Positions 34,996-61,764 of a stretch of DNA of 64,000 bases are shown here, in pieces (the first letter of the stretch is position 1; the number at the start of each line of letters is the position of its first letter). Source of the DNA: Trypanosoma brucei (lineage: Eukaryota); assembly GCA_000002445.1 (NCBI GenBank), contig CM000208.1:416001-480000 (forward strand), given 5' to 3'. Position numbers and translations under genes: made by a program. The notes under the pieces were generated by a model. The model was not told the origin of the DNA and did no database searches. It worked only from the letters and a program-made list of their open reading frames with translations.

Positions 34996-35016
34996 GGGGG
35001 GGGGGGGGGAGGTGGG
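34996..35016 (+). repeat. G14 homopolymer followed by AGGTGGG (G-quadruplex-prone tract) inside the strand-switch region
   Basis: Read directly: ctaGGGGGGGGGGGGGGaGGtGGGctg. Confidence 0.9.
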
Positions 35017-36086: not shown

Positions 36087-36107
36087 TGTGTGTGTGTGTG
36101 TGTGTGT
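36087..36107. repeat. (GT)10 microsatellite just upstream of the HDAC gene
   Basis: tgtgtgtgtgtgtgtgtgtgt read directly. Confidence 0.9.
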
Positions 36108-36400: not shown

Positions 36401-37567
36401 ATGAATGAGGATGGTGATTGTCGGCGCGTCGCTCTCATTGACACATCTTGCTATTCCGCTGATTGTACGCTCTCAGCGTTGGTTCCTCAGCATGCAATGA
36501 AACCGTATAGACTTTTGGTGACAATGGAACTAATTGCATCACTGGGGTTAAAGCGGTTTTGTCGGACGGTTGTCCCGCCACCAATTGGTATTAAAGAGCT
36601 GCTTACCTACCATGCTGAAGATTACATACTGAATCTGGGACTTCATAGTAACCGCAGCTGGTTGTGGAATACAGAGGTATCGAAGGTTACCTTTTCCGGA
36701 GATTGTCCACCTGTTGAGGGAATTGTTGAATATTCTCTCTCAACAGTTAGTGGCTCCCTCATGGCGGCTGTTTTGCTGAATAGTGGTGCTGTCGATACAG
36801 CGATTCATTGGGGTGGAGGTATGCATCATGCAAAGTGCGGTGAGTGTTCTGGATTCTGTTACGTGAATGATATTGTTATCGCCATTATTGAGCTACTGAA
36901 ATGCCATGATAGAGTTTTATATGTTGATCTTGATATGCATCACGGAGACGGAGTCGACGAAGCGTTTTGCCGTAGCAGAAGAGTCTTTACTCTTTCCCTT
37001 CACAAGTTTGGCGAGTCCTTTTTTCCGGGTACAGGCCATCCACGGGATGTAGGCATTGGAAACGGACGCCACTACACTATGAACTTAGCCATGTGGGATG
37101 GTGTGGATGACTTCTACTACACCACAGTTTTTGAGCGTGCGCTCAGATCCATTGTAAAACGGTTCAATCCAAATGTAGTTGTCTTGCAGTGTGGAGCCGA
37201 TTCGCTCGCAGGAGATCGTTTGGGACATTTTAATCTCTCGTCATGGGGTCATGGAAAGTGTGTTGAAGAGGTAAAGAAATTAGGGCTACCAATGCTTGTG
37301 GTTGGTGGTGGTGGTTACACCCTGCGGAATGTTGCCAAGCTGTGGGCATACGAAACTAGCATACTCTGTGGGAAAAGGCTCCCCTTGAACACTGTCATTC
37401 CTCTACATCGAATGCCTCTTAGTGGATGGCTCTTCGAAGAATCGCCACAACTTTTAGTTTCACAGGATGAAGAAAACAAACCTCTTCCTGGTGTTAACGT
37501 TCAACGATCCTTCCGCGTGATTATTGAGCAAATAGACAAGCACTGTCCAAATATAATGACTGTTTGA
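36401..37567 (+). CDS. class I histone deacetylase (RPD3/HDAC1-like; resembles trypanosome DAC1)
   Basis: 388 aa with ATG start. Catalytic signatures present: 'HWGGGMHHAKCGECSGFCYVNDIV' (HH pair), 'DLDMHHGDGVDEAF' (Zn-binding Asp/His), 'VVGGGGYTLRNVAK' (GGGGY). Looks catalytically competent. Confidence 0.95.
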   Translation: MNEDGDCRRVALIDTSCYSADCTLSALVPQHAMKPYRLLVTMELIASLGLKRFCRTVVPPPIGIKELLTYHAEDYILNLGLHSNRSWLWNTEVSKVTFSGDCPPVEGIVEYSLSTVSGSLMAAVLLNSGAVDTAIHWGGGMHHAKCGECSGFCYVNDIVIAIIELLKCHDRVLYVDLDMHHGDGVDEAFCRSRRVFTLSLHKFGESFFPGTGHPRDVGIGNGRHYTMNLAMWDGVDDFYYTTVFERALRSIVKRFNPNVVVLQCGADSLAGDRLGHFNLSSWGHGKCVEEVKKLGLPMLVVGGGGYTLRNVAKLWAYETSILCGKRLPLNTVIPLHRMPLSGWLFEESPQLLVSQDEENKPLPGVNVQRSFRVIIEQIDKHCPNIMTV

Positions 37568-38849: not shown

Positions 38850-40445
38850 ATGATATCTCCTGATTTTTTTTTTGGCGGTGTGTCCCTTTTATCTGATTCT
38901 ATTGAAGTTCGCTCTCGTTGGTCTTGTTTGAAGTACTTGGGTGATGCTATTATAGTGATGTCGGTAGTGGCGTCCTTCGTTGCAGAGTGTGCACGGAGCG
39001 GTCGCTGGGTACGGGGCGTTATGGCTCTTCATAGCAGTATCGGTGCAGAAGACGCGAGCATCGGGAGGGCGCGTCTCCGGTTAGCGTCCAGCATCTTAAG
39101 GAAACATTGGTGCGCTGCTTTGCCGCTAATAAGGCCTGAAGATGTGCAATATGTGGATGACCTTGCCCGATTGGTGCACGAATGCTCGATGTGCGCCGAG
39201 GTGCCCGCGGATGTATTTGACAGTGCAGTTGTTAAGTTGCTAACGCGCGCTCGAGGAAAAGATGAAATACAAACCCAATTATTTCTGTCCGCAACCAAGT
39301 GGACAAATTGGCATCAAGCGACTCGATTCTTCACCATGTTGGATACGCCAGGGGCATTGTGCAGAGATTCGCTGATGATACTGTTGATGAACGCTCTTGG
39401 ATCTGGGAGCATATCCAAACAACACACCATCGGTCTTATCCTTAGCCAGTTAAAACTCACCAACAGTCGCCATATTGGCAACGGAAGGCGTGATCACCTA
39501 TCGTCAATCTCTGCTGCTAATGCTGCGCACTCGTATATAGAGAAGGGTACTGATTTAGTGAAGGTTTGGAGTGCGTTGCGGGAAAGGGATGGAATTAGCA
39601 CGAAGTTAGTAATGAGTCTCGCAAGAGCGGCAATACAAGGTGAGCGATGTTCATGGAAGTTACCCCTATCCATCCACGGCAGGAATAGGGTCGTTGGTGA
39701 TTCTACTGAGGTGCTATCAAAGATGATTGCTATTTGCTGTCCGCAACACTGGAGAGCTGCTCTCGGTCATTTTGTCGTAGAAGGGAGGCTTGCCTTATGG
39801 CTGGCCTCCCGCTACAGTTGGGAAGCCGGGTTAGTTGTATCGAAGTTGGTTTCGATACCGCGGCGTGAAAAGTACGACATACTTTGCCGGTGCGCAATTC
39901 CTTTACCCCAGTTGAGGGGCATTGCAACGGTGGCCGGGGCAAAAATAAGGTTGAGCAACGCATCCAAAAGAAGCATTGCGGTGCGTCTGGCCAGTGGTTA
40001 CACAACTGAGGAGCTACAGCTGAGTGCTTTTGCTAAAGTATGTCAGAAAAATGGGGATTGGGAAACGTCCCTTTCCCTCTTCCATCGAGTCGCTACCGAG
40101 GAATTCCAACAACGTGCGGTTCAGTGTATCCTTGCACACTGCCCCGGTTTCGGGGTGAAAAAGTTACTTCAGCTGGTGAATGAGCATTGCCCGGCTAACA
40201 CTTGGACGACGTCAATGCTAGTGAAGCACTCCGATGACTGGGTGGAGGCCCTGTACGTTCTCCGCCATGTGATGGCTCGCGGGACGCGTTGCAATCCACA
40301 AATACTGAGCGCTTTTATGGACGTGCAGCCACCGGTTGACGTTGTATCGACTGTGGTCCGTAACACCACATTTGCGGGGCGCAGTGAGGGTATTATGAGA
40401 CGCCTTGAGATCCTAGAGATAAGTGGAAAGAGCCCGCAGCATTAA
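38850..40445 (+). CDS. hypothetical protein, alpha-helical repeat-like (possibly PPR/TPR-type); start uncertain
   Basis: 531-aa ORF in the plus polycistron with a poly-T tract upstream. Leu/Ala/Arg-rich helical composition. No nameable motif. Confidence 0.6.
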   Translation: MISPDFFFGGVSLLSDSIEVRSRWSCLKYLGDAIIVMSVVASFVAECARSGRWVRGVMALHSSIGAEDASIGRARLRLASSILRKHWCAALPLIRPEDVQYVDDLARLVHECSMCAEVPADVFDSAVVKLLTRARGKDEIQTQLFLSATKWTNWHQATRFFTMLDTPGALCRDSLMILLMNALGSGSISKQHTIGLILSQLKLTNSRHIGNGRRDHLSSISAANAAHSYIEKGTDLVKVWSALRERDGISTKLVMSLARAAIQGERCSWKLPLSIHGRNRVVGDSTEVLSKMIAICCPQHWRAALGHFVVEGRLALWLASRYSWEAGLVVSKLVSIPRREKYDILCRCAIPLPQLRGIATVAGAKIRLSNASKRSIAVRLASGYTTEELQLSAFAKVCQKNGDWETSLSLFHRVATEEFQQRAVQCILAHCPGFGVKKLLQLVNEHCPANTWTTSMLVKHSDDWVEALYVLRHVMARGTRCNPQILSAFMDVQPPVDVVSTVVRNTTFAGRSEGIMRRLEILEISGKSPQH

Positions 40446-47291: not shown

Positions 47292-47505
47292 GGGGTCACT
47301 TTTTTGGTTTACTTCCCCACCCGCCGCCACGGTCATTCGCTCTGCGGGCGTGTGCTTGCGAGCGGTGCGGTGTGCCTCGTCAAAGTCCTCGTTTGGTGGA
47401 ACCCCCGTCCATCCATGAATCGAGTGGCTGTTCGCTTATTTCCCGCTTCAACACTGTTGGGGGAAAGTGGTGGAATCGGTGGACGTGTTCCGGTGGCGAA
47501 CGCGC

Positions 47506-48339
47506 ATGGTGCCGTTAAGTTGTTCATTGTCAACTGTCTCTGCTTCTTTTCCCTTTCGATTCAAACGTCTCCTTTTTCTTCGGCTCTCTGCGAGGTATCG
47601 AAGGCTTGCCATGCGCGCGGTGCGGGCCTTGACGGGAGGCCAGCAGGCGGTGAACGAACTGGAGGTCTTTCTCCGAGCAGTGGCTGACACACAGCGCCGG
47701 TGGGCCAAACGAATTGCCGCGCAGGAAGCGAAGGTACGGCGCTGCATGATGGTCGAGGACCACTGCAGGAAAAGGCTCCGCAGAAGCGTCCTCCGCTTCA
47801 CTAACGAGCGTCTCAAGCGCCTGGTCAGCACAGATCCTCTGGGGCACGTGGAGCCGAAGCTCCCCCCAGCCTCCGCATTTGGGGCGTTCGACATACCCCC
47901 TCATTGCGTCAATGGCTTCGGGGTGTTCGTGATGGCCAAGCTTCACGAATTCCCATCGTGTGTGCTCGACGCCCCGCGTGTGGGTGCCATCGCCGACCTC
48001 CTCGCTGCTTGGGAAATACTCCCGCCCTTCAAGAAGGAGCGGTACGAAGCATACGCTGAAAGCGTGAGGGATGTGACCACAGCAACCGGAACGGCTAGCA
48101 GCTCCGGCAGCTCAACCAATTGTGAGCAGCGCACGGCAGGAGTTGAGGGCGATGCCGGCACACCAACGAACGAGAACGAGGCCGCTGCTTATGGGCGATT
48201 TGTGCGTTGCGGAAGGCGGCAACTGGAGGCGGTGCTGGGTCCCGTGAGTAGCGCAGCGTGGTTGGGGATTGCGACAAGGGAATGGGAAAGCTTGACCTTA
48301 CGGCAAAAGCGTTGCTACTTATCAAAGCGGACGAAGTGA
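47506..48339 (+). CDS. hypothetical protein with possible C-terminal HMG-box-like segment; Arg-rich N-terminus; start uncertain (ORF open from 47467, alternative ATG 47611)
   Basis: 'IPPHCVNGFGVFVMAKLHEFPSC...IADLLAAWEILPPFKKERYEAYAESVR' loosely follows the HMG-box pattern (P..P...F..F......W..L....K..Y...A). Heavy ORF overlap on both strands (GC-rich), so the coding status is not certain. Confidence 0.4.
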   Translation: MVPLSCSLSTVSASFPFRFKRLLFLRLSARYRRLAMRAVRALTGGQQAVNELEVFLRAVADTQRRWAKRIAAQEAKVRRCMMVEDHCRKRLRRSVLRFTNERLKRLVSTDPLGHVEPKLPPASAFGAFDIPPHCVNGFGVFVMAKLHEFPSCVLDAPRVGAIADLLAAWEILPPFKKERYEAYAESVRDVTTATGTASSSGSSTNCEQRTAGVEGDAGTPTNENEAAAYGRFVRCGRRQLEAVLGPVSSAAWLGIATREWESLTLRQKRCYLSKRTK

Positions 48340-50228
48340 AAGAGATGGCACACACACACAACACCCTCCTTCTTACCTCATTTCGTATCCATAAAAGGGT
48401 GTGGCCAAGGCGTTGGTTGCTATTGTGCCTTTGGGGGCTGTCGACCTGGGGTGTAAATGGATTGTTGCGTGTTTACGAAGCGTGTTGTTTGACACGGGTC
48501 AAGAAGTGGGCATTGTCACTTCATACGCTCAATAGAGAAAACGAGCGCATATGTTCCGACAACGGGGTGTCGGATGTTTTCTTATTTTTTCATTGGTAAG
48601 TTGGGAGTTGGGAGGGGGGGGGGGTACCGACGGATACGAATTGGCGCTTTCCCTGCTTTTCGACCAGGACGATACACACTACTGGTTGTATTTGAGTGAC
48701 GCGGAAATGAATAATCTGTTGCAACGGACCGCCGCAAGCACATGCCTTGTCTGAATGTAAGTGTGCTCGGTTTGCCCCAGGTATTGCTTACGCCCCTCGA
48801 TTTGGGGGCGCGTTTTCGAGGTTTTCGTTGGACGGCTGCCGGAGGCAAAGCGCTATTGCGTTCCCTTTGTTATTGCCATTCGCTTTCTTGTGCGCGCTAT
48901 GCGGCATCAGATCCTGCGACCCGCCTCCCTGGCATACTGCTGATGTGCTGCCCGCAGTGGCACCAAACCCTCTTTTTCCCCGTTACTTGGTCTACTTTCC
49001 TTTTTGCTACTTCACATTTTGGGCCGTCGCGCGAGGGGCGCGACGGCCTCGTATGAACCGAAGAGTAGATTTCATATGCCAGGGCAAACCGCAGCTTCCT
49101 TTTCCTTGTGGCTGGAGCTCGTCGAAAGGAACGGAAGGTGAAGTACCCGGTTGCGGTTTCAGACGGCACTACCTTCATGCCTTTCGGCATGTGCAAGACG
49201 TCGCCGACAGGCGGTCCGCGCTCCGCGACACCATCACAGCGACGGGGAGGGCTCCCAGCGGGCACGGAAGCAGCCACTTTGGCGGGGACTCGATGGACGA
49301 CACAGTTGGCGTACCCAGCCGCAACTTCCTGAAGACTGATCCTTCAAATGGGGTTGCGCACGTGGAAATAAGCGTCGGTAGGATCTTTTTTGGCTCCAAG
49401 TCCGTTGCCGCTTCCCCCGATGGTCAAGCAGGCCCCGCTAACACTGAGGGAAGCGATGGTAGTGAAGCCCAGTTGGCACAACGCCGGGCCCCAGATCGGC
49501 TGGGTCGTCAACAGCGCCCAACACTTCTCCGCCTCTGCACCCTGTAGGGCAAACCTCCACAGCATTTCTCACTAAGAACAAAAACCCGAGAAAGGGGAGA
49601 AGAGGTAGCGCAACACAACCGGGCAGCCCAGGGGGTTGCACCAACCTTTGAAGTTCCCATTAAAAGTCCCCATTCCAGGCCCGAAAGGACAGGACCACCC
49701 CACGCAATCCCTTTAATCTCCCAACAAGAAGCGGTGACATCACTTTTTTTTAAAAGAAAAAACAATCTTAGAAAATTCAAAGGTAGATTCTCAATACACC
49801 TATAGCACGGGGTGGAAAGGGGCGGAAATCCATACACTACTAAAACGCCCCGAGAGGGTGAGCCATGCAGATGTGTAAATGCAAAATCATGCAGGCGGTC
49901 ACCTCACTCCACCCTTTCCTTCCCGCGTTCCTCGCGAATGTTTTGACACCCTTGGTATCGAGCGGTGTTACCACGATGATCAGATTCGTACTTGGGGTCT
50001 CACGTGGACAGTCCCCGTACTTTACCCTGCGTCACTAACCTCCCTGTGCCCCTGGCGGCCTCCGGCTTCGACCTGCGCCGTGTTTTTCTCACTGACGACC
50101 AACATTCCAGGGAGCCAACGGCAGAACTGCGTTTTAACTCCATCAGAAGAAACAACGGCCACGGACACTTCGCTTAAGTTGAGCCAGTGAAGACGGGTTA
50201 AGGTTTGTCGTCCCAGCGCCACAAGCTA

Positions 50229-51023
50229 CTATGCTCCGGTGTTCTGTTTACCGGATGCGACGGGCGGGAAAGCGTGGCCGGCACGTGTGTCCTCCAACTC
50301 TTCACTTCGACGTGCCTCTGTACATACTGCGTCGGGTTCCACAACGGGGAAAGCATGTGTTGTGTTCAGCTCCTTGGCTTGCTCCTCCTGCAGGGTGCTG
50401 CCAGCGGGCTTTTTCCGAAGTTCCACTGCGGGCAGGGTGCACAAAGGACGTGAACCCTCCTCATCGACCTGTCGAGATCCAACCCGGGCCCCATCAGATT
50501 CATTATCTGGCGAAGCACTCGGAGAGCGCGGGTCCGTCCTGGCTTCACTGAGTTTAGCACTTGCGGTGCGTTTGAATGGCTCCACGGCGGGAAAGGCTTG
50601 TGTGGGTCGCGGGTCACCTGGTGACGGCGCTCGCGGTTCTCCTTCACAGGTGTCGGGTTCTCCGGGAACCGCGCTGGACCCATTCCCCTTGGTCTTCTGG
50701 ACTTGCCGCTGTTGAGTGGCAAGGCGCGGGGCATCGGGGACGACTATAGGCAAAGCGCTCGTAAACGGCATTTCTTTTCTACCATCCTTCAGCTGAGGAT
50801 CGCTGGAGGGTTTAACGGGCTCCATGACGGGCAAAAGATGGGGGGCATGCGGTTTCTTATAATCAGACGACTGTCCTGCTTCGGCGGCTGGTGCTTCAAT
50901 TTCTCTTTGCAGTGGAGCGCCGATGTGGCATACTTCTTGCTGGCGTTCCCCATGATCAGGGATTTCTACGAGAGAACCTTCCGGGCCAGCGCTTTGTCCT
51001 CTTGGAAAATTTTCCGTTTTCAT
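50229..51023 (-). CDS. hypothetical Pro/Ala/Glu-rich protein carrying six diverged copies of an 'AFPxVEP'-type peptide motif; lone minus-strand ORF inside the gene-poor interval
   Basis: The minus-strand ORF (track 50229..51164, TTG start; first ATG 51023) contains HAPHLLPVMEP, ALPIVVPDAP, QAFPAVEP, TLPAVEL, HAFPVVEP and HAFPPVAS. The DNA copies (e.g. ggttccacaacggggaaagc, ggctccacggcgggaaaggc, gggctccatgacgggcaaaag, tccactgcgggcagggtgc) differ mostly at codon third positions. It is the only frame spanning all copies. It is antisense to the flanking plus-strand units, so the call is tentative. Confidence 0.35.
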   Translation of the reverse strand: MKTENFPRGQSAGPEGSLVEIPDHGERQQEVCHIGAPLQREIEAPAAEAGQSSDYKKPHAPHLLPVMEPVKPSSDPQLKDGRKEMPFTSALPIVVPDAPRLATQQRQVQKTKGNGSSAVPGEPDTCEGEPRAPSPGDPRPTQAFPAVEPFKRTASAKLSEARTDPRSPSASPDNESDGARVGSRQVDEEGSRPLCTLPAVELRKKPAGSTLQEEQAKELNTTHAFPVVEPDAVCTEARRSEELEDTRAGHAFPPVASGKQNTGA

Positions 51024-51338
51024 AGCGCCTTTACGTTGACCTACGGATTTCGGTGCCTTCAGCGCTTGAAGCGGAGCAGTCCACTCGTTTATAGCAAACC
51101 TTGCTTTGAAGGCCTTAATCGAGCAAAAGTCGCAAAGTTTAAAAAGTCTACCACCGTTAGTCAAAAGAAAGCATCATCTGAACCACACAAAGGAATAAGA
51201 GCACACCACTACCACAGAGATGCTCTAGTGGAGCACACGAACGCCCCCTTTCCATTCTCAACTGCAGCGAAAGAAAAGGGGAAAATAAAACTGTCAGCAC
51301 ATACGTACCTTTTTATTTGTGGTAGATGGAGCGCAGAA

Positions 51339-51361
51339 ATATATATATATATATATATATA
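51339..51361. repeat. (AT)11-12 microsatellite
   Basis: atatatatatatatatatatata read directly, immediately upstream (on the minus strand) of the motif-repeat ORF. Confidence 0.9.
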
Positions 51362-53052
51362 ATCAGTAGACCCGCGTTGTTCCCCGTTGCCATTTTTCCG
51401 CATCCGTATGTGAGACCTTTCTAACAAAACAACGGCATGATAATCTATGAGGCCAGGCCAGTACCGTTGAAAGGGGTCTACCACTACACCATGCCTTGCA
51501 ACTAGGATGCGCGATATCAGCCCCGGTGCCCTTTAAGAAAAGGCGTTCCGGTCTAATGTGAACAAGGCGAGCAAGTGGATGCATCAGCGCAATGGGAGAA
51601 GAGTGGTTGATAGGAAAGCTCCACCCCCTCCAACACAAAAAGGTATGCGGCACATGGCTCGTGAAATTACAAAAAAGATCCTCCACATACCTTAAGGGGG
51701 ATGCGTCAAGTAGTCGTCCCGAAGGGACGTGCACACAAACATTTTACTTCTAAACATCAGTGCTGAGGAAGCTATCGCATTCAATTACGGTTTGTAACCG
51801 TATTGGCCGATACAAATTACCTGTGGGGGCTCACAAAATTATCGGTGAGGTTCTTTGTGCCGGTGTTAAAGCCACGGGGACGACAAGAGCGTACCTTCAC
51901 TAACGGCTCTCTGCTACTGGGCCGTTCCAAGGCTCTGTGTCTTGGCGCGCCTAGATGCGAAGTCACTCACGGCACCAACATCCAGATTTTCTTTTCTTAA
52001 ACCCTCGACGGCTCTTGAAGCAGCTGGTACCAAATCTGTTTCTTTCACTCACCGCGCCACCTTCGCGGTCTCAGCCTCATACGCCAACATCCTTTTTGAA
52101 CCCTCATTGATTAGGTTTGGGTTTGCCTTAAAAAAATAAGCTCCCCACACAGCCACTTACATCAACTTCACCCCATCGCTTTTTTACGTCCTCGGTATTT
52201 TACATTGTGTCATTATAATTTTCATCGTGAATAGAAGTGATACACCGCATGTTATATGCACCGAGTTGCCTCCCAACCAATATACTCACTAACTTAACCC
52301 CGATAACCACCTTCCCATCCTGTTAGACCCCCCCACGCTCTTCGCAGGTGCTGCTCTTTTTTTTTTTTGCCAATACTAGGCACGCAAACAGCGGGTTGCC
52401 ACTGTCAAGCACCGGGAAATTGTTATTAACTTGAAGAATCTGTCGCCCACGTCACGGACTTGAACTATTAAATATCTAATCCACGCAAACGCGGAGAAGC
52501 AAACCAACAAAGAACCCCAAGGCCCTCTTTTTCTCCCAGTTGTGGTTTCGAACGTTGAAGAACTTCCATTTCGCTGTTACCTCTGGTTTACCTCTCCCTT
52601 TTTTTTTTCAACGAGATCACGCGCACGGGTAACCTTACCTTTGGTAATGTTGACAACAAACCCTCATCTTCCACACCGTGTTCATCCTACGTAGTGGAAA
52701 CTCGCTTCTAAAAAAAAAAAATGTAGTCTCCACAGAAATGTAAGAGCTGTTTATTACACTCATCGATGTCGAGGATGCCCCATGCTGAAGTTGCCCACGC
52801 AGTGCAGATGTTAAGTTTGAAAACGTATGCTCGCAACTCCGAATAACAGTGACGACAAACGGTGCCTGCGTCAGGAAGTTTGAACCATTCCCCTCACAGT
52901 CCACAATCCTCCTCACGTAATAAGATAGGTATAAAGTTTAGCGCCCACAGTTCAATCATAAATCGGCATGGAAATGTGCAATAAGGACATAGAGTCATTC
53001 AGAAACAACGGAACATAATCCCAGCATACGGCGGCTTCAGCCAGCCAGCCAT

Positions 53053-53053
<1 letters not shown>

Positions 53054-53088
<35 letters not shown>
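53054..53088. repeat. (CA)17 microsatellite
   Basis: cacacacacacacacacacacacacacacacacac read directly. Confidence 0.95.
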
Positions 53089-53093
<5 letters not shown>

Positions 53094-55438
53094 TCACTGC
53101 ATCGGTTAGTACACGCCAGGAGTAATATATATCGAGCAAGGATGCGTAAAGATAGCAGACTCGGAGGTGATGAATATACGGCGCACCGCTTGTGGGGTAC
53201 GCTTCTGTAAACAAATGAATGCCACCACGTACGCGACGGGCGCAACAGATATGATACACACAAGTTGAGGGAACTAAAACCCTTTTGAGGGGATACATAT
53301 CGTACAGTACCTTGCATGCGTGCGACTCTGTAGAGCCATCGGCTACGACTACTGACGTACCTGATCGCGTAGACTCATACTATCGACGATTCAAGAAACA
53401 ACTCCTCTTTCCATGACTCGTGTAAAAACAAAGTAGCCACAACTTTGTCCCTCCACCTGGTGGAAGGGATGCAGTTCACATACTGCGTACAACCCTAACC
53501 CTTTACTGATAGTTAATGCGTAGCAACAACCGCTGAGAAAAGCACAATAAGGAATTCATCACATCTCACACTGTCACATTCCATTGAATCTGAACCCCTC
53601 ATTGAGATTACACCCCTCCCCCATTTAGCACCCAACACATATCATCTAGCGCTAATGCGTCTGCTGTACTTCCAATAACAAGTAAAGCTCCACACATCTA
53701 GTGAAGTTGCATAGTGCAAACACCCTCCCATGCTCAGTGTAATCTTTCGTTAGGTCATCGCCCCTTTTGGTGTGCATACGAATCCTACCTAACTGCACCT
53801 TCACATCTTATTTTTCACCCCATCCTACTCAACCGTAGTACACAACGAACATACCCCTTGGTCATTTACCATATCTATTAATTATAAAAATAATTCAAAT
53901 AATTGTTGTCACTCTGCGTCCAGCACAGCTCATCCAGTTCGGATATGAAGGTGCAAACGAGTGGAATCGCGAAACCGCACGTGCTGACAGAGCAATAGGA
54001 ATTTCTCCACCCAGAGGCGTCATGAGCGTAAGCCTGGTGTATGATCCTTTCAGAGTGTATTTTGGAGCCGAGGAATTTATTTGAGCGATATCAATAATCA
54101 CTTCCCCCAGCCAGCCGGTTCAAATTACATCAACACTCAACTAATATACGTATAAACACGGATATCTCACGGATTATTAGTTAAGTATGTCGCAGTTCCA
54201 TTGCAGTTGGAGCATGAGGAAAATTAAGTGAGTATCCAATAATGGACCAAATCATACACAACATGAGCACCCTACATCCACTCCCTCTGAGCCTAACCTT
54301 ACAACCACATAGCAACCCGCCGCCCGGGGGGGGGCATCAGCAGAGAAAGTCTGCGATGTTCATATATATATATATATTTCCATTTTCGCCCTCTTTTAGG
54401 CGAAACTTTGTAATACAAACATCGTTCAACACGAGGATGACGAAAATGTTATTGAGTTATACTCAACAATTTATTGCGGCTCAAACACGGCTTGAGCGAA
54501 CATATCAGCCGTTAGATTGCGATAGAACCTGCATGCGCTAACTTCTCACCAAGCAGACAAAGAAAATGCGGAAGCACAACGACAGGTTTACAAGGGGTTG
54601 GATATATAATACAAAATATCGGATGATATCACCGCTGCCTTAGACGACCTCTATCCACAGTCCCGCCCAGTAAACATTAATAACTTTACACACACGCCAC
54701 ATTGTCGACGATACCATTAAAAAGGTAACGGAAAGACTACCGAAGGACAACACACTTCGAGAGATCCCCGCCTTTCAAAGGAAAGAATGCAATATATTCT
54801 CCCGTCACAGCGTCAACTTGCACAGCGCAATAAAACCTTACACAACAACCGCTTCTAAACTCATCTATAATCACTCTTCATTTACATTCGATCATTAGCG
54901 CAACACCAGCGATGGCAGTGACAACAAAACAAAAAAAATACTCAAATTTAAACATGAACCATTCAATATCGGAGGACAAGTTACAAATTGCAGATACAGA
55001 TTTTTAAAGTTAAAACATACATAAGTACTATTCAATGAGGTTTCAAATTATCTAAATCATCAATACATTGGAAATGACTACGCAGCGACACGTATTCATT
55101 CAAAAACAGCATCCGAAACTCACCTAAAAAAACAAAAGAAAAAAGAAAAAATAGGTAGCACCGCCGCTCCACCTACAAGTAAATCAGCTACTGAAGGTGG
55201 GAAAGTCCCTCCAAATGTGAGTTTAACCGCCACTGTGAGGTAATAAAGCAACGCCAGAAAACACACTTTATTCACTTTCCCTGATATGTAACAAAAAAGG
55301 GCCCTAGAAATAATAAACAGCTGAGAACCTCCGAGCAACCTACCAACGAGCCGATTGCTGTGCAAAGCTAGTGGAATTACGCTTCTCTGCATTTTCCAGC
55401 AACGATGTTTCAGACCTAACATATCCCACTTCGAAGGT

Positions 55439-56290
55439 ACCACCGCACAAAAAACATACCGTATCCGATGCGGCACAGCCGCCTGCACACGAAAAATAGA
55501 AGTACAAACAAACTTTTGGTCACCACACGTCTGCTCCTTTGGAAGCAGCAGCGCTCAGGGTACACCAAGCTACTTCACAACACCCGTTCATACAAGTAGC
55601 AGAACGAAATAAATGAGTAGCACCACGGTGCAGGACGTGAAGCAACGCAACCTAACCCACACAACGAAGTTTTGTCGCGGCAAGCGTCCCATCACGAGAA
55701 TAATAAAAGAGGAGTCCAATTCACCAGCAACTGGACGGACGCCCCATACCATGCCCAGCTCTTCCTTCCACCGCCCCACTCGTTGTGGTAACGACCCAAA
55801 CGATGGAGCCCTTTCCGACGGGGAAGTTCCTGCGGCACAACAGCCACACCCCGTAGAGCTCGCCAAGCTCCACACACACCAACACAGGGGTCCTGAAACC
55901 ACGAGATCTAACGGGGAGGGGCACAGCTCCCAACCTTCTTTCCTGAGTGGGAATAAAGCCTTAGTTAGCCTATCCAAAACAGGCGGTCAATCAGATTAAT
56001 GTTCGCGTGGGCCCCAAGCAAATCATGCCAAAAAAACTATGTGACCTCCGAATTGTTTACTTCGGAGCCCCCCCCCCCACCTCCGTTTTGTTTACCACCA
56101 GCTCTGACCAAATTCCTCCTCCCAAACGAGTGGCACCCCCTACTTCGGCACACCTGAGCGGTCCGCGACTGGTGTATTCCCCAAACCAGGCAAGGCTTCG
56201 GGGCCCGCTCAACCACGCGGTAGGGCACAGAGTCGTCGGGAGGGAGAAGTCATTCATGCTCGCCTTACAGAAGCACGTATTGGTCCTTTT
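55439..56290. repeat. left arm of large inverted repeat (852 bp)
   Basis: Reverse complement of 57448..58300. Checked by eye at both arm boundaries, and by mirrored, near-identical ORF translations on opposite strands. The 128-aa ORF 55613..55999(+) equals 57740..58126(-) exactly. 55588..55977(-) equals 57762..58151(+) except one residue (R/K). 'TTAQKTYRIRCGTAACTRKIEVQTNFWSPHVCSF...' is shared by 55355..55612(+) and 58127..58552(-). Includes a C11 run at ~56068-56078. Confidence 0.9.
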
Positions 56291-57447
56291 GTTCACCTAT
56301 TTATGAGATGAGGCAGCTGTGGAGTTTGGAACGCCAGAACCTGGAGGAGGTGATTCGCAGCGTGGGAAAAGAGCTGCCGTTTTTTTTTTTTTTACCGTCT
56401 GTGTGAGACCGCCACCCTAACCACTGTTGACGCGATCTGACGTTGTGCCGGTGTTAAAGCACTGCCTTTTGGAGGCTATGCGGTGTGCTTTCCGACGGCC
56501 GAGTTGAGCGTCGACTGCAGTCACCATCAGCAGAGCATTTAAGTGAAAATGAACCGAAGGGACGGGAAGGTAGTTACTACCGTTTGTTTCTGGCGGTGGA
56601 ACTCGTACACACCACTGCCTTTAGATGCCACACACACACACAGGAACGTTAAGATAACCGCCAGAAATAGTCTACAATTAAAGCCTTTCGAGCCATTCCC
56701 TCATCGCACACACGCTTCGTTTTTCTTAGTGTAGGAGCCTCCCTCTGCCCCCTTGATTTCTTCTGTTTGAAAACATGCACCGGGCATCCTTCTTGCTGAA
56801 AACCACTTGGCTTCAATACAAATCAAATTCCTATACGGAGTCACAACCGAAGTTAGGACCCTCATGCAAGAGAAGGACCACACGTGTCCCTCTGCTAGTT
56901 CACTCCCGCGTGATAAACAGAAGATGCCCAAGAGGAACCGGACCCGCACGAATTGCAACATCGTCCGAACTAAGCCCTTTTCGCGGCAACCTACTATTGA
57001 GAAGTGCTTTGTAGCTGTTCGCTCCGGTTCGATCGCATTACCTCAGTTCTCAAAAGAACTTCAGCCCTGCACGATGATTTCGCTGTCGAGTGCCCCCAAC
57101 ACGTTCGTGGACAATGACGGCCTGGTGGAATAAGTACATTTTTTTTTGACTTTTCGTCACCTAGAGGGGGAAAGGATAGTATTTCAATGTTGAATCGACG
57201 GGCCCTCGCAGGTATTCCAAATCCCCTATTTTGCACTGCGGTGGCTAACCGTCCTTCATTATGGCAACTGCAGAGCAGTTCTCAAAGGCACCGTCTTCCA
57301 CGCCCATACTGGTTTGAATGAGGAGGCCTGTGGCGAACCGCACCATCTTTTATCGTTCGTTTTTACTCTTCAATATGCGTCCAACACAGGAAGTTAAGTA
57401 ACATCATCGTATTGCCATGCCCCCCAAAATAATAATAAGGGGTTATT

Positions 57448-58300
57448 AAAAGGACCAATACGTGCTTCTGTAAGGCGAGCATGAATGACTTCCCCCTCCC
57501 GACGACTCTGTGCCCTACCGCGTGGTTGAGCGGGCCCCGAAGCCTTGCCTGGTTTGGGGAATACACCAGTCGCGGACCGCTCAGGTGTGCCGAAGTAGGG
57601 GGTGCCACTCGTTTGGGAGGAGGAATTTGGTCAGAGCTGGTGGTAAACAAAACGGAGGTGGGGGGGGGGGGCTCCGAAGTAAACAATTCGGAGGTCGCAT
57701 AGTTTTTTTGGCATGATTTGCTTGGGGCCCACGCGAACATTAATCTGATTGACCGCCTGTTTTGGATAGACTAACTAAGGCTTTATTCCCACTCAGGAAA
57801 GAAGGTTGGGAGCTGTGCCCCTCCCCGTTAGATCTCGTGGTTTCAGGACCCCTGTGTTGGTGTGTGTGGAGCTTGGCGAGCTCTACGGGGTGTGGCTGTT
57901 GTGCCGCAGGAACTTCCCCGTCGGAAAGGGCTCCATCGTTTGGGTCGTTACCACAACGAGTGGGGCGATGGAAGGAAGAGCTGGGCATGGTATGGGGCGT
58001 CCGTCCAGTTGCTGGTGAATTGGACTCCTCTTTTATTATTCTCGTGATGGGACGCTTGCCGCGACAAAACTTCGTTGTGTGGGTTAAGTTGCGTTGCTTC
58101 ACGTCCTGCACCGTGGTGCTACTCATTTATTTCGTTCTGCTACTTGTATGAACGGGTGTTGTGAGGTAGCTTGGTGTACCTTGAGCGCTGCTGCTTCCAA
58201 AGGAGCAGACGTGTGGTGACCAAAAGTTTGTTTGTACTTCTATTTTTCGTGTGCAGGCGGCTGTGCCGCATCGGATACGGTATGTTTTTTGTGCGGTGGT
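57448..58300. repeat. right arm of large inverted repeat (853 bp), ~98% identical to the left arm in reverse complement
   Basis: See left arm. The only differences seen are a few substitutions and a G12 vs C11 homopolymer length difference (57660-57671). Spacer 56291..57447 = 1157 bp. Confidence 0.9.
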
Positions 58301-59124
58301 GAGTGGTCGTGCCAGGGTGTTGCTGGGAGCAATGTTGCATGTCTTGCGGTGGTGTTCGCCTGGCCTGATGTTGTCATACTCCTTTATTTTGTTATGACAT
58401 GTAACGCTTGTTGTGATGTTGGCATTTATTTTTGTAAGTGGCTGGTGTGTGAAAGGCGCCACTTTCAATAAGTCCCCCCTTTCTGATGTGTTACATTCCC
58501 TTGTTTGTATTTCTGCCGACCGGTTATAACATTGGTATGCAGGGTTACACACAGGTTGTTTCTTTGGCTTGGTGAATGTATGTTGATGTCGAAAAACCGA
58601 TGTTTACAAGAGTGGTAACCCTTTTTTCCCGGTGGCCTAGACGACACTAGCTCACTGTAGTATATATATGCGTGTGTGCGCATGTGTGGTGATATTGAAA
58701 CTCTTCTTGATGTTATCAAGTGCGTAGGTGTGGGACGCATGGACACTCGCACACATCCTTTTCAGCCTGTATTTACTCAAACTAAAATGTTTTTTAGTAG
58801 AATTATATTTTTAATGTTGTGGTGCTAAGGAAAAAAAAAAAGGATGTACTGGTGTTGTATGCAGGTGCTGCTAAACGCATGGTCGGGACAGTTGTTACTT
58901 TGCTGATTTTCTTGCTGTGCTGTATGGGCACTTGCTTGGTGTAGGCAGGTGTGCAGGCCATGGATGCTGTTGTCTTATGTGCTATATTTCTCTCCTAAGT
59001 CAGTTTTTTCTCCAGTACTTTGTTACATTAGGGAAGGGGCTAGTGGATTTGCGCGCAAACTTTATTTTCCCTTCATTTTCTTGAAGAGATCAATAAACGG
59101 TGTAACACACAGTAGTGGCTTGAA

Positions 59125-60150
59125 ATGTCCTTCTCCAGTGACGAGAAGAAACCCACGCGGACGCGTGGTGGTGGAGCTCTTACGGATCCTCACGCTGTAA
59201 AGTTGCACGGTAATGATTTTTCCTTGGATGAAAAATTGGGTGGACTGGCCCCCGAGGAGCGCAAAGTGGTCGCAGAATACATTGAAAAATGCGAAGAAAC
59301 CCTTCTCCAACTTAGCAAGAGAGGCTGCAATACTCCTATCATTCCTTTTAACAGTGAGAACCACTCCTGGGACTCTCTTTACAAGGTTAATAAGAGGCAT
59401 TTCCCTCTTAAAAATTACATTATTCTAGCATTTCCTCTGCTAAAGTCAATATGTTGTGGGCCAAAGCGTGAAAGCAAGTACATTGTTGAATGCGGTTGCG
59501 GGACAGGGAGTACACTGCTACCAATAATGAATCAGTTCAAAGACGGAGTTCACTTCATTGGATTTGATGTATCCACCGCTGCTGTATCAGCGTTGTTGGA
59601 ACACCCGATTGCCAGTGATTTTAGTGCAGAGGGGCGACTGACCGTTTTCCCCTATGACTTGTGCTACGGCCGTGTCAGTGCGTCTGAGGATTGTAGGAGG
59701 ACTAAGTTCAAAACGGAATGTGGTACCTTGAAAACTACTTTGTTGGAAAAAGTGCCTGGTTGCTCTAAAGGTGTGGACGCAGCTATCTTAGTTTTCGTCC
59801 TTTCGTCGTTGCCTACCATTGAGTGCATGCTCTATGCGTTGACGGAGATTAAGAGCATACTCCATAATGATGGTATTCTTTTGTTTCGTGATTACGCTGT
59901 TCCCGATCATAATCTCTTTCGATTCGTCCGGCAACAAAACAAAAAACATAACGATTTGAGTTTTTGTAAAGGCGATGGAACCTTGCAAATGTTTTTTGAG
60001 CTGAACTTCACAAGAAAGTTGTTTGCGTTAGCGGGGTTGAAGGAGGTCGAGGGTCACGGATTGCAATACCATTGTAACCGCATTGTTAATAGAAAGAACA
60101 GTAAAAGAATGGATAAGATATTCATAAATGGCAGCTTTTGTTTATCTTAA
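59125..60150 (+). CDS. METTL2/METTL6/METTL8-family tRNA N3-methylcytidine (m3C) methyltransferase (yeast Trm140-like)
   Basis: Family motifs: 'NHSWDSLYKVNKRHFPLKNYI' (cf. 'WDxFYKxxxxxFFKDRHW'), SAM-binding 'IVECGCGTGSTLLPIM', 'GFDVSTAAVS', and 'DAAILVFVLSSL...ILLFRDYAVPDHNLFRF' (cf. 'DxxxLIFVLSAI...LFRDYGxYDxAxLRF'). ATG start, 341 aa. Confidence 0.85.
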   Translation: MSFSSDEKKPTRTRGGGALTDPHAVKLHGNDFSLDEKLGGLAPEERKVVAEYIEKCEETLLQLSKRGCNTPIIPFNSENHSWDSLYKVNKRHFPLKNYIILAFPLLKSICCGPKRESKYIVECGCGTGSTLLPIMNQFKDGVHFIGFDVSTAAVSALLEHPIASDFSAEGRLTVFPYDLCYGRVSASEDCRRTKFKTECGTLKTTLLEKVPGCSKGVDAAILVFVLSSLPTIECMLYALTEIKSILHNDGILLFRDYAVPDHNLFRFVRQQNKKHNDLSFCKGDGTLQMFFELNFTRKLFALAGLKEVEGHGLQYHCNRIVNRKNSKRMDKIFINGSFCLS

Positions 60151-60861: not shown

Positions 60862-61764
60862 ATGGTTACACCTCAGTTTGTGCAACAGAACTCTTCTCTC
60901 GCCTCAGGTTTTTGGGATTCTTTTGCCCTATACTTTTCCCTAATTTCTCTTGATGTGGTGGTGGAGGGAATGATGAAGAGAACAATATTACAAAGATGCA
61001 TACAAAATAAGTCGCTCGAAATAGCACGTATTTCTCGGAGTGATATTAATAGTCGAGCTCATTTGCCTTTTAACTTCGATGTATGTTACGAGCTGGGCTC
61101 ACGTGAGTTTACATTATTCTCAAGTGTGGGTAGCACATCAGTTTTGGTCTTTTGTAACGTTTCTAGTCGGCGGCTGCGTTCGGTGAAGGGAGGACAGGGT
61201 GAGACTGAATTCCCTCCGAAAAGGTTAAATGTGAAGAGGCGTCGGCAAAGCGGTAGCGCGGATCGCTCTCCTGTGGTATTTTCTGCATTTGTGTCGATGC
61301 CCACGTCAGGACTCACAATTGAAGCATTGTGTTGTAGCTCACTTGGGCTTCTGGTTGTTGATGGCGTCTCATTTCACCAGGGGCCGCTGACGGAATCAAT
61401 GATACCTCAAGACGCACATCCGGGCCCCGAAGGTCATTATCAAGGACCGCTGCTGAATCAGAGGTCGTTGGCGGAGATGGTAGTCAACACTCGAGGCTGC
61501 ATAACTTCTGTTGATCCTTTTCGGCAACAAGAATCATTTTTTGATGGGCATGTGAATCCATGGAATGCGCGCTCCTTGAGGTTTGGTCACGTGCCTGTAC
61601 ACACCGCAAAGCCGGGGTTTTCGGACGCTCTTTGCCACTTTCTTGAGGTGTTTGGGGTTAATGATGAGCTAGCCTTCTTTGTAGAGGACTTTGCACACTT
61701 GGTACATAGGGAAGAGGAAACAGCTTGGACTAACGTCCTGAAAACTATGATGGGAGGCAGGTGA
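60862..61764 (+). CDS. hypothetical protein (300 aa; alternative ATG at 60970)
   Basis: ORF on the polycistron strand with ATG start. Only 135 nt downstream of the RBX1 stop, so the downstream ATG (60970, 'MMKRTIL') may be the real start. No recognisable domain. Confidence 0.45.
   Translation: MVTPQFVQQNSSLASGFWDSFALYFSLISLDVVVEGMMKRTILQRCIQNKSLEIARISRSDINSRAHLPFNFDVCYELGSREFTLFSSVGSTSVLVFCNVSSRRLRSVKGGQGETEFPPKRLNVKRRRQSGSADRSPVVFSAFVSMPTSGLTIEALCCSSLGLLVVDGVSFHQGPLTESMIPQDAHPGPEGHYQGPLLNQRSLAEMVVNTRGCITSVDPFRQQESFFDGHVNPWNARSLRFGHVPVHTAKPGFSDALCHFLEVFGVNDELAFFVEDFAHLVHREEETAWTNVLKTMMGGR

What the first reader, a model, noticed from the sequence alone, without database searches (positions are those of the whole stretch)
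48340..59124. 10.8-kb interruption of the plus-strand polycistron: GC-rich block, antisense ORF, microsatellites and inverted repeat but no ordinary genes
From 36.4 kb rightwards, plus-strand genes follow each other every 1-2 kb. After the ORF ending at 48339 the next convincing plus-strand gene starts at 59125. The intervening sequence falls into three parts. (a) ~1.9 kb of GC-rich DNA with frame-overlapping junk ORFs on both strands (48.3-50.2 kb). (b) One antisense (minus-strand) ORF (50229-51023). (c) ~8 kb with (AT)n, (CA)17 and the inverted repeat. If the antisense ORF is real, the layout is convergent (48.3-50.2 kb) then divergent (51.0-59.1 kb) strand switches bracketing a single-gene unit. 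An 8-kb divergent region would be unusually large. Strand-switch and termination regions in trypanosomatids often host Pol III genes (tRNA, snRNA, 7SL), snoRNA clusters and siRNA sources. I could not recognise any tRNA (no A/B-box pair) or snRNA by eye. Unrecognised ncRNAs (H/ACA or C/D snoRNAs) remain possible.
Basis: partly seen in the sequence, partly recalled or inferred. Interest (0 to 1): 0.5.

Follow-up and report, generated by a model that had tools for sequence, protein, structure and literature searches.

The report
Known strand-switch gap with siRNA inverted repeat
The 10.8-kb "gene desert" is the already mapped boundary between two transcription units on Trypanosoma brucei chromosome 10, and it holds a published small-RNA-producing inverted repeat (IR6), so it is real but largely ordinary and known.

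Summary
The window is T. brucei TREU927 chromosome 10, 416,001-480,000. The gap at 48,340-59,124 is real: it has no conserved gene, no tRNA and no Rfam match.

It is not an unexplained interruption. Published tables already place three units here: a plus unit ending at Tb10.70.6150, a two-ORF minus mini-unit (Tb10.70.6110 to 6130), and a new plus unit starting at TbTrm140 (Tb927.10.1800). The inverted repeat (arms 55,439-56,290 and 57,448-58,300) matches Tb927_10_IR6, a published DCL2-dependent source of AGO1-bound siRNAs.

Synteny shows both boundaries are ancestral:
- The Tb927.10.1750 orthologue is the last plus gene before converging genes in T. vivax, T. melophagium and T. rangeli.
- Trm140 is the first gene after a divergent switch in T. 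cruzi and T. theileri.

Base composition and published promoter 10-mers place the divergent start region on the repeat.

New details found here:
- The 1,157-nt spacer is inverted in T. b. gambiense and T. b. equiperdum relative to TREU927.
- The arms evolve in concert.
- The 264-aa antisense ORF is a Trypanozoon-only orphan with gene-like codon usage but no detectable constraint.

Verdict: observation confirmed, layout reading correct, already known, low interest.

The parts
47506..48339 (+). Tb10.70.6150 (inferred Tb927.10.1750), the last conserved gene of the upstream plus transcription unit. Probably 242 aa starting at the ATG at 47611.
   Evidence: Exact protein match to EAN77603. Kolev 2010 supplement gives CDS 463506-464339 and the splice site at 463595, which is window 47595. 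Its orthologue is the last plus gene before converging genes in T. vivax, T. melophagium and T. rangeli.
48340..48910 (+). 3'UTR of Tb10.70.6150, up to the mapped poly(A) site.
   Evidence: Poly(A) site at chr10 464910, which is window 48910 (PMC2936537 supplementary file 17). The strand model is plus-sense here.
49053..49547 (+). Tb10.70.6140 (inferred Tb927.10.1760), a 164-aa Trypanozoon-only ORF lying in the zone where plus and minus units converge. Probably not a functional gene.
   Evidence: Exact match to EAN77604. Weak codon score of 0.028 and no Pfam hit. The strand model flips sign at 49.0-49.5 kb. [quoted passage not shown] Tb427.10.1760 is flagged H3.V yes and base J yes (PMC4721609 S1 Table).
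50229..51023 (-). Tb10.70.6130 (inferred Tb927.10.1770), a 264-aa orphan ORF with degenerate 'AFPxVEP'-like repeats. It is the last ORF of the minus mini-unit.
   Evidence: Exact match to EAN77605, named 'T. brucei spp.-specific protein'. Its only homologues are in its own Trypanozoon cluster. Codon score is 0.066, within the gene range. Polymorphisms are 4 nonsynonymous to 3 synonymous. No Pfam hit.
51262..51290 (-). Polypyrimidine tract followed by AG, a candidate trans-splice acceptor for the 264-aa ORF.
   Evidence: Read directly from the minus-strand sequence. Use of the site was not tested.
51363..51584 (-). Tb10.70.6110 (inferred Tb927.10.1780), an annotated 73-aa ORF. It is the first annotated ORF of the minus mini-unit and is probably spurious.
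   Evidence: Exact match to EAN77606. Codon score is -0.095. It has the highest substitution density of the ORFs tested, 2.25%. Listed in Kolev Table S14.
51585..55438 (-). Minus-sense, AT-richer non-coding stretch holding the (CA)17.5 and (AT)8 microsatellites and a T-rich (minus strand) tract at 55126-55151. The 54.5-55.4 kb part has promoter-like GT-richness on the minus strand.
   Evidence: Strand model scores -31 to -87 per 500 nt. Repeats. No Pfam, Rfam or tRNA hit. No similarity to syntenic flanks of other species or to the rest of the window. GT and 10-mer scans.
55439..56290 (.). Left arm of inverted repeat Tb927_10_IR6 (chr10 471439-472290). Reads as 'sense' on the minus strand.
   Evidence: Length, identity and position match PMC3447711 Table 3. 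Strand model scores -83. Published start-region 10-mers hit the minus strand 21-29 times per 500 nt.
56291..57447 (.). Spacer (hairpin loop) of IR6. It is inverted in T. b. gambiense DAL972 and T. b. equiperdum relative to TREU927.
   Evidence: Reverse-only BLAST alignments at 98.7-99.0% identity. The spacer is not itself palindromic.
57448..58300 (.). Right arm of IR6 (chr10 473448-474300). Reads as 'sense' on the plus strand.
   Evidence: Strand model scores +70 to +109. 848 of 852 left-arm bases pair with this arm in the predicted RNA fold.
57500..59124 (+). Predicted transcription start region and 5' flank of the Trm140 unit. It is the most GT-rich DNA of the whole window. A polypyrimidine tract lies at 59060-59082, before the ATG at 59125.
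   Evidence: G+T is 65.5% at 58.0-58.6 kb, z = 2.8. Published start-region 10-mers hit 24/31/22 times per 500 nt against a mean of 7. Sequence read. The start site itself is inferred, not measured here.
59125..60150 (+). TbTrm140 (Tb927.10.1800), a tRNA m3C methyltransferase and the first conserved gene of the downstream plus unit.
   Evidence: Pfam methyltransferase hits. Exact match to EAN77608. Gene ID from PMC4757839. It is the first plus gene after a divergent switch in T. cruzi and T. theileri.

Best explanation
The interval is a compound strand-switch region of T. brucei chromosome 10 (TREU927 464.3-475.1 kb) where one Pol II polycistronic unit ends and another begins.

Proposed layout:
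- The plus unit from 36.4 kb ends after Tb10.70.6150. Its mRNA is polyadenylated at 48910.
- Transcription from both sides converges and stops at about 49.0-50.2 kb, over the silent ORF Tb927.10.1760.
- From 57.5 kb down to about 49.5 kb the DNA behaves as a short minus-strand unit. It carries only lineage-specific ORFs of 73 aa and 264 aa.
- The divergent start region lies around 54.5-59 kb, centred on an 852-bp inverted repeat, and fires outward in both directions. The rightward direction drives the Trm140 unit.

Proposed siRNA route: start regions in this organism are broad and bidirectional, so some transcripts cross both arms. These fold into an ~850-bp hairpin, which nuclear DCL2 dices into siRNAs that load onto AGO1. 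This is the published IR6 siRNA locus.

Recombination and gene conversion between the arms keep them near-identical and occasionally flip the spacer.

Shown here: the coordinates, the IR6 identity, the absence of conserved genes and ncRNAs, the ancestral boundaries, the composition switch, the spacer inversion and the concerted evolution of the arms.
Taken from papers: the transcription-unit table, the siRNA counts and Dicer dependence, and the H3.V/J flags.
Inferred: the exact start and stop positions, and the read-through hairpin as the dsRNA source.
For: Identity of the locus:
- Exact protein matches to TREU927 chr10.
- A coordinate offset of 416000 derived from Kolev's supplement.

Published layout:
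- Table S14 lists the three units, including the minus mini-unit Tb10.70.6110 to 6130. The text says 5'-triphosphate RNA tags are enriched at every divergent unit.
- Tb927.10.1760 is called the last ORF of a unit, with rpkm 1.7. Tb427.10.1760 is flagged for H3.V and base J.

Inverted repeat:
- The arms of 852/853 nt differ at 7 substitutions plus 1 indel and lie at chr10 471439-474300.
- Tb927_10_IR6 is listed as 853 bp, 99% identity with 8 mismatches, within 467000-478000. It gave 4387 AGO1-bound reads, falling to 38% in dcl1-/- and 6% in dcl2-/- cells.
- H3.V knockout raises siRNAs at inverted repeats.
- The predicted hairpin pairs 848/852 arm bases, with MFE -2173 against about -955 kcal/mol for shuffles.

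Composition:
- The 5-mer strand model was trained outside the gap and switches sign at about 49.0 and 57.5 kb.
- The most GT-rich DNA of the window is at 58.0-58.6 kb, mirrored at 54.6-55.8 kb.
- Wedel's start-region 10-mers peak on the plus strand at 57.5-59.0 kb and on the minus strand at 54.5-56.0 kb. They also peak at the window's other divergent switch, at 36.0 kb.

Synteny:
- Trm140-RBX1-MAM33 order is conserved, and Trm140 is first after a divergent switch in T. cruzi and T. theileri.
- The 1750 orthologue is last before converging genes in T. vivax, T. melophagium and T. rangeli.
- In T. congolense only two protein accession numbers lie between those of the two orthologues.

Arm dynamics:
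- The spacer is inverted in two other assemblies.
- The arms differ by 0 substitutions within T. b. equiperdum and within T. b. gambiense, yet fixed differences between those subspecies are present in both arms.
Against: - No expression or chromatin data could be examined here. Start and stop positions rest on supplementary tables and on composition.
- Neither Tschudi 2012 nor Reynolds 2016 lists a convergent unit at this position. The 'convergent' half may therefore be weak, or may have been excluded because the antisense ORFs are doubtful.
- The 500-nt bin at 50.5-51.0 kb, inside the 264-aa antisense ORF, scores plus-sense (+64.7) in the strand model.
- The 10-mer scan is not very specific. 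Several bins inside the minus unit at 2-4 kb score higher.
- The Tb927.10.1750-1790 to ORF mapping is inferred from consecutive accession numbers. One accession (EAN77607) was not located among the ten longest ATG ORFs.
- Spacer orientation in the Sanger-era assemblies could be an assembly choice, because junction sequences are identical in both orientations.
Confidence: 0.8

Rival explanations
1. There is no real antisense unit. Plus-strand Pol II stops near 49-50 kb and restarts near 58 kb, a head-to-tail stop/start pair. Minus-strand RNA across 50-57 kb is only unproductive upstream-antisense output of a bidirectional promoter, and the annotated minus ORFs are spurious.
For: - All three annotated ORFs are Trypanozoon-only.
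- The 73-aa ORF has a non-coding codon score.
- The 264-aa ORF shows 4 nonsynonymous to 3 synonymous changes and no drop in substitution density.
- The locus is absent from two published lists of convergent regions.
- Kolev 2010 reports that all start sites are bidirectional.
Against: - About 8 kb has minus-sense composition as strong as real minus units. This is hard to obtain from weak antisense leakage alone.
- The 264-aa ORF has a gene-range codon score, is intact in four genomes, and has a polypyrimidine-AG signal upstream.
- Kolev Table S14 lists a minus unit here.
Confidence: 0.3
2. The siRNAs of the repeat arise from overlapping sense and antisense transcripts made by opposing promoters, not from an intramolecular hairpin.
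For: - For another repeat (IR3), Tschudi 2012 saw small RNAs from the spacer too. They concluded that both strands are transcribed.
- Published start-region 10-mers occur on both strands around the repeat.
Against: - Outward transcripts from the two arms are identical in sequence, not complementary. Divergent firing alone therefore gives no dsRNA.
- A transcript crossing both arms is predicted to pair 848/852 bases.
- All seven long inverted repeats in the genome give siRNAs. This points to the inverted-repeat geometry as the cause.
Confidence: 0.25
3. The gap hides Pol III genes, snoRNA clusters or a degenerate retroposon, and these explain the missing genes.
For: Such elements often lie at strand-switch regions in trypanosomatids (general knowledge). 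An A-rich tract at 55126-55151 could superficially resemble a retroposon tail.
Against: - ARAGORN found no tRNA.
- Rfam found nothing at gathering score in the window, and only two lncRNA chance hits at E 1.6-3.8 in the gap.
- None of 13 gap ORFs has a Pfam domain such as reverse transcriptase or endonuclease.
- No direct repeats and no similarity to the rest of the window.
Confidence: 0.05

Closest known systems
Tb927_10_IR6, one of seven long inverted repeats that yield AGO1-bound siRNAs in T. brucei (Tschudi et al. 2012, PMC3447711)
   Same: Same chromosome and position: chr10 471439-474300 lies inside the listed 467000-478000. Same repeat length (853 bp) and the same number of differences (8). 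This is the same object.
   Different: Nothing differs in identity. Added here: exact arm and spacer coordinates, spacer inversion between subspecies, concerted evolution of the arms, and its position at the centre of an ancestral divergent start region.
Divergent strand-switch regions / transcription start regions of T. brucei with GT-rich coding-strand elements (Siegel 2009; Kolev 2010, PMC2936537; Wedel 2017, PMC5579346)
   Same: Two units diverge from here. GT-rich 10-mers are enriched on the outward coding strand on each side. The size lies within the 5-10 kb norm.
   Different: The centre is a near-perfect 852-bp inverted duplication, so the two outward-facing halves are the same sequence. 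One of the two diverging units holds no conserved gene.
Convergent strand-switch / Pol II termination regions marked by H3.V, H4.V and base J (Reynolds 2016, PMC4721609; Ouna 2012, PMC3332058)
   Same: A plus unit meets a minus unit at about 49-50 kb. The last ORF (Tb927.10.1760) is nearly silent, is flagged for H3.V and J, and is de-repressed on CTR9 loss.
   Different: It is not in the published lists of convergent regions. The opposing unit is only about 8 kb long and has no conserved genes.
Hairpin-type endogenous siRNA loci of animals (long inverted repeats processed by Dicer; cited as background in PMC3447711)
   Same: A long inverted repeat whose read-through transcript can fold back into perfect dsRNA. 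Dicer dependence is reported.
   Different: No target gene is known here. The locus sits inside a Pol II start region, not in a dedicated transcription unit.
Invertible segments flanked by inverted repeats that flip by homologous recombination (for example chloroplast inverted-repeat isomers, yeast 2-micron plasmid; from general knowledge)
   Same: The spacer is found in both orientations among close relatives, and the arms are homogenised.
   Different: No recombinase gene or specific site is evident, and no phenotype is tied to orientation. Flipping within one population has not been shown.

Membership tests
Tb927_10_IR6 long-inverted-repeat siRNA locus | Two inverted arms of about 853 bp at 99% identity on chr10 within 467-478 kb | tested here: met
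   Arms of 852/853 nt with 7 substitutions plus 1 indel. The window offset of 416000 places them at 471439-474300. Table 3 of PMC3447711 gives the listed values.
Tb927_10_IR6 long-inverted-repeat siRNA locus | AGO1-bound small RNAs of 22-25 nt map to it and depend on Dicer (DCL2) | not testable with these tools
   Reported as 4387 reads in wild type and 6% of that in dcl2-/- cells (PMC3447711). No read data are available here.
Tb927_10_IR6 long-inverted-repeat siRNA locus | A transcript spanning both arms can form long dsRNA | tested here: met
   The predicted fold pairs 848/852 arm bases, with MFE -2173 against about -955 kcal/mol for shuffles. Whether such a transcript exists was not tested.
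Divergent strand-switch / Pol II transcription start region | Units on opposite strands diverge from the region | tested here: met
   The strand model switches from minus-sense to plus-sense at about 57.5 kb. Kolev Table S14 lists both units as 'Divergent'.
Divergent strand-switch / Pol II transcription start region | GT-rich 10-mers enriched on the coding strand | tested here: met
   Plus strand gives 24/31/22 hits per 500 nt at 57.5-59.0 kb (mean 7, sd 6.8). Minus strand gives 22/29/21 at 54.5-56.0 kb. G+T is 65.5% with z = 2.8. Specificity is moderate.
Divergent strand-switch / Pol II transcription start region | H2A.Z/H2B.V/H4K10ac enrichment and 5'-triphosphate RNA ends | not testable with these tools
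   Kolev 2010 states that tags are enriched at every divergent unit of Table S14. Locus-level data were not seen.
Divergent strand-switch / Pol II transcription start region | The first gene of the unit also heads a unit in related species | tested here: met
   Trm140 is the first plus gene next to minus-strand genes in T. cruzi L004 and T. theileri L005. Downstream gene order is conserved.
Convergent strand-switch / Pol II termination region | Opposing units meet | tested here: met
   The strand model turns from plus to minus at 49.0-49.5 kb. The annotated 164-aa plus ORF faces the 264-aa minus ORF. The 1750 orthologue is last before converging genes in three other species.
Convergent strand-switch / Pol II termination region | H3.V/H4.V/base J enrichment | not testable with these tools
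   Tb427.10.1760 is flagged 'H3.V yes, J yes' in PMC4721609 S1 Table. The mapping of that ID to the 164-aa ORF is inferred.
Convergent strand-switch / Pol II termination region | Listed among published convergent regions that yield siRNAs | tested here: not met
   No chr10 entry lies between 281 and 610 kb in Tschudi's list, and none lies below 615 kb in Reynolds's S2 Table.
Pol III gene / snoRNA cluster at a strand switch | A recognisable tRNA, snRNA, 7SL or snoRNA gene | tested here: not met
   ARAGORN found 0 genes. Rfam found 0 at gathering score, and only two chance-level lncRNA hits in 48000-59500.
Retroposon (ingi/RIME/SLACS) remnant | Reverse transcriptase or endonuclease coding remnants, or repeated copies | tested here: not met
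   No Pfam hit in 13 ORFs of the gap. No repeats shared with the rest of the window. A genome-wide copy-number check was not possible.
Protein-coding gene (264-aa ORF, Tb10.70.6130) | Homologues beyond the species group, or purifying selection | tested here: not met
   Only its own Trypanozoon cluster appears among 5.8 billion proteins. Changes are 4 nonsynonymous to 3 synonymous, and substitution density is 0.88% against 0.67-1.36% in the flanks.
Protein-coding gene (264-aa ORF, Tb10.70.6130) | Gene-like codon usage in the reading frame | tested here: met
   Score is +0.066 per codon against 0.062-0.177 for 18 supported genes. Other long non-genic ORFs score 0.028 or less, and all five alternative frames are negative.

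The most novel reading that the evidence does not exclude
The inverted repeat may be an inverted duplication of the Trm140 promoter region. In this reading its two GT-rich arms are the paired, outward-firing core promoters of this divergent start region. The left copy would have created the gene-poor minus mini-unit, in which the orphan 264-aa ORF arose. Arm-to-arm recombination keeps the copies identical and flips the spacer. Hairpin siRNAs from read-through transcripts could then feed back on promoter chromatin. The result would be a self-homogenising, RNAi-coupled bidirectional Pol II promoter.
Probability: 0.15. Interest if true: 0.5.

Novelty: already known. Interest (0 to 1): 0.22.

Why it matters
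The main value is in closing the finding. The gap is not a new element or a hidden gene cluster. It is a documented transcription-unit boundary carrying a documented siRNA-producing inverted repeat.

The added details bear modestly on an open question raised by Tschudi et al.: why are the long inverted repeats of T. brucei kept nearly identical? Arms that share every subspecies-specific change, together with a flipped spacer, point to ongoing recombination and gene conversion. Selection on the hairpin is then not needed as the explanation.

The position of the repeat, exactly where promoter-like GT-rich sequence diverges, also gives a simple way for the hairpin to be transcribed. This makes the locus a compact test case for how start regions, termination marks and nuclear RNAi interact.

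Tried and rejected
- **tRNA and ncRNA search.** ARAGORN on the window and Rfam at gathering score and at E<=5 found nothing.
- **Bacterial-type promoter/terminator scan.** Counts were at or close to chance level, and the scan is irrelevant for a trypanosome.
- **Pfam on 13 ORFs of the gap.** No domains.
- **Homologues of the 264-aa ORF.** None outside Trypanozoon.
- **Remnants of genes flanking Trm140 or the 1750 orthologue in other species.** I looked for the T. cruzi helicase, the T. theileri GNAT and GP63 genes, and the T. vivax ORFs in the gap by tblastn, tblastx and blastn. There were no hits. The gap DNA has no detectable counterpart in those flanks.
- **Degenerate extension of the inverted repeat, and palindromy of the spacer.** Smith-Waterman scores were no better than shuffles. 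The repeat has sharp ends.
- **Inverted repeats upstream of Trm140 in T. vivax, T. cruzi and T. theileri.** None of note.
- **Locating accession EAN77607 (presumed Tb927.10.1790).** I looked up the ten longest ATG ORFs of 51.6-59.2 kb by exact sequence. None is in the collection.
- **Sequence-specific promoter paper (Cordon-Obras 2022).** It is not in the library, so its motifs could not be scanned.
- **Wedel 2017 supplements.** They cover a different chr10 locus at 800 kb. Only their 10-mer list was usable.
- **Correction of my own early note.** I first took locus L001 to be Lister 427. It is T. brucei equiperdum, with DPX39 locus tags.

Full report
**What the window is.** Exact protein look-ups place it on Trypanosoma brucei brucei TREU927 chromosome 10.
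- A supplementary table of Kolev et al. 2010 gives Tb10.70.6150 at 463506-464339, Tb10.70.6200 at 454850-456445 and Tb10.70.6030 at 476862-477764.
- These equal the window ORFs 47506-48339, 38850-40445 and 60862-61764, so the window is chr10 416,001-480,000.
- The plus gene at 59125-60150 is TbTrm140, Tb927.10.1800.

**Checking the observation.** The gap is real.
- After the ORF ending at 48339, the next supported plus gene starts at 59125. Between them lie only short overlapping ORFs, one 264-aa minus ORF (50229-51023), three microsatellites and a large inverted repeat.
- The repeat has arms at 55439-56290 and 57448-58300, with 7 mismatches, 1 indel and a 1157-nt spacer.
- No tRNA and no Rfam family was found.
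- No Pfam domain was found in 13 ORFs of the gap.
- The 'GC-rich block' is no richer than the coding DNA just upstream.
- Its first 571 nt are the mapped 3'UTR of the last plus gene, with the poly(A) site at window 48910.

**What the annotation and literature already say.** TREU927 annotates three small hypothetical ORFs here:
- Tb10.70.6140, 164 aa, plus strand, 49053-49547.
- Tb10.70.6130, 264 aa, minus strand, named 'T. brucei spp.-specific'.
- Tb10.70.6110, 73 aa, minus strand, 51363-51584.

Published data on transcription units and marks:
- Kolev et al. list the putative Pol II units as Tb10.70.6220 to 6150 (+), Tb10.70.6110 to 6130 (-, Divergent) and Tb10.70.6040 to 5340 (+, Divergent). 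They state that 5'-triphosphate RNA tags are enriched at every divergent unit.
- Ouna et al. call Tb927.10.1760 the last ORF of a transcription unit, with rpkm 1.7.
- Reynolds et al. flag Tb427.10.1760 as positive for H3.V and base J.
- I infer that Tb927.10.1760 is the 164-aa ORF. The accession numbers EAN77603-77608 are consecutive, and Trm140 is Tb927.10.1800.
- The locus is absent from two published lists of convergent regions.

**The inverted repeat is Tb927_10_IR6.**
- Tschudi et al. list it as 853 bp, 99% identical with 8 mismatches, within chr10 467000-478000. It gave 4387 AGO1-bound reads, falling to 38% without DCL1 and 6% without DCL2.
- The window repeat lies at chr10 471439-474300, with arms of 852/853 nt and 8 differences.
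- H3.V loss raises siRNAs at inverted repeats.
- A transcript across both arms is predicted to pair 848 of 852 arm bases.

**Composition.**
- A 5-mer strand model trained only on the flanking units gives plus-sense to about 49.0 kb, minus-sense from 49.0 to 57.5 kb, and plus-sense from 57.5 kb. One exception, at 50.5-51.0 kb, lies inside the 264-aa ORF.
- The most GT-rich DNA of the whole window is 58.0-58.6 kb. A mirror-image AC-rich stretch lies at 54.6-55.8 kb.
- The coding-strand 10-mers that Wedel et al. found enriched in start regions peak on the plus strand at 57.5-59.0 kb and on the minus strand at 54.5-56.0 kb. They also peak at the window's other divergent switch at 36.0 kb. Some intra-unit bins score as high, so the test is only moderately specific.
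- Each arm reads as 'sense' going outward, so divergent firing alone yields identical RNAs, not complementary ones. dsRNA needs a transcript that crosses both arms. The broad, bidirectional initiation described for this organism would provide one. This step is inferred.

**Synteny.**
- Trm140, RBX1, the MAM33-like gene and a 230-aa gene keep their order in T. vivax, T. cruzi and T. theileri.
- None of the window's upstream genes is found beside Trm140 in those species. In T. cruzi and T. theileri, Trm140 is the first plus gene next to minus-strand genes.
- Conversely, the block Pol kappa, DEAD helicase, 414-aa gene, CID gene and 1750 orthologue is conserved in T. vivax, T. melophagium and T. 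rangeli. In each it ends with the 1750 orthologue followed by converging minus genes.
- Both boundaries are therefore ancestral.
- In T. congolense only two accession numbers lie between those of the two orthologues, so the juxtaposition is probably shared with T. brucei.
- The gap DNA itself has no detectable counterpart in the other species. No inverted repeat lies upstream of Trm140 there.

**New details.**
- Spacer inversion: the spacer aligns only in reverse orientation in T. b. equiperdum (GCA_003543875.1) and in T. b. gambiense DAL972, at 98.7-99.0% identity.
- Concerted evolution: within each of those two genomes the arms differ by no substitution. The genomes differ from each other at three substitutions and one indel, and these are present in both arms. 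In TREU927 the arms differ at seven sites. This is the pattern expected from gene conversion and crossover between arms.
- Caveats: junction sequences are the same in both orientations, so only long reads can prove orientation. The TREU927 arm differences could also reflect a mix of haplotypes.

**The 264-aa ORF.**
- It has a codon-usage score in the range of real genes.
- It is intact in four genomes.
- It has a polypyrimidine tract and AG upstream.
- It has no homologue outside Trypanozoon and shows no sign of constraint, with 4 nonsynonymous to 3 synonymous changes.
- Its status is open. The 73-aa ORF looks spurious.

**Verdict.** Its claim of unusual size does not hold, because 5-10 kb is normal for divergent regions. 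Its suggestion of hidden ncRNAs is also not supported. The locus is a known compound strand-switch region carrying the known IR6 siRNA source. The spacer flip and arm homogenisation are small additions.

Noticed in passing
window 47467-48339: The TREU927 gene model of Tb10.70.6150 (277 aa, ATG at 47506) is probably too long. Kolev's major splice site at window 47595 lies inside it. Other Trypanozoon annotations use the 242-aa form starting at 47611, while DAL972 uses 308 aa.
   Followed up: partly
window 34500-36400: A second, ordinary divergent strand switch separates the minus genes (1-34.5 kb) from the plus unit starting at 36401. The 36001-36500 bin is rich in start-region 10-mers on the plus strand (30 hits). 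The minus side shows no matching peak.
   Followed up: partly
window 51024-51362: The four-genome alignment shows an apparent 11.8% of variable sites around the (AT)n microsatellite. This is most likely misalignment caused by repeat-length differences and not real divergence.
   Followed up: no
window 56060-56080 and 57655-57665 (inside the repeat arms): A poly-C/CA tract near the inner third of each arm varies in length between arms and between subspecies (alignment columns 631-648). It is the only difference between the arms in T. b. equiperdum and T. b. gambiense.
   Followed up: partly
window 55613-55999 (+) and 57740-58126 (-): Each arm carries an identical 128-aa ORF. DAL972 annotates both copies as 'hypothetical protein, unlikely'. 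The codon score is about zero and there is no Pfam hit.
   Followed up: yes
L009 14907-18991 (T. vivax, downstream of the 1750 orthologue): The converging minus-strand ORFs include one with a weak Exo_endo_phos_2 hit and one with faint zinc-finger hits. This suggests retroposon-like content at the T. vivax convergent region.
   Followed up: no
L010 6408-8372 (T. melophagium): A glycosyl hydrolase family 31 gene sits between the orthologues of the 414-aa gene and the CID gene. It is absent at that position in T. brucei, T. vivax and T. rangeli.
   Followed up: no
window 50229-51023: The 264-aa product contains five loosely repeated proline-rich motifs: LPVMEP, FPAVEP, LPAVEL, FPVVEP and FPPVAS. 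The 500-nt bin covering its 5' half scores plus-sense in the strand model, unlike its surroundings.
   Followed up: partly
L008 (T. equiperdum OVI contig CZPT02001853.1): The short-read contig ends about 30 nt inside the left arm of the repeat, and Trm140 lies on another contig. The repeat therefore breaks short-read assemblies.
   Followed up: yes
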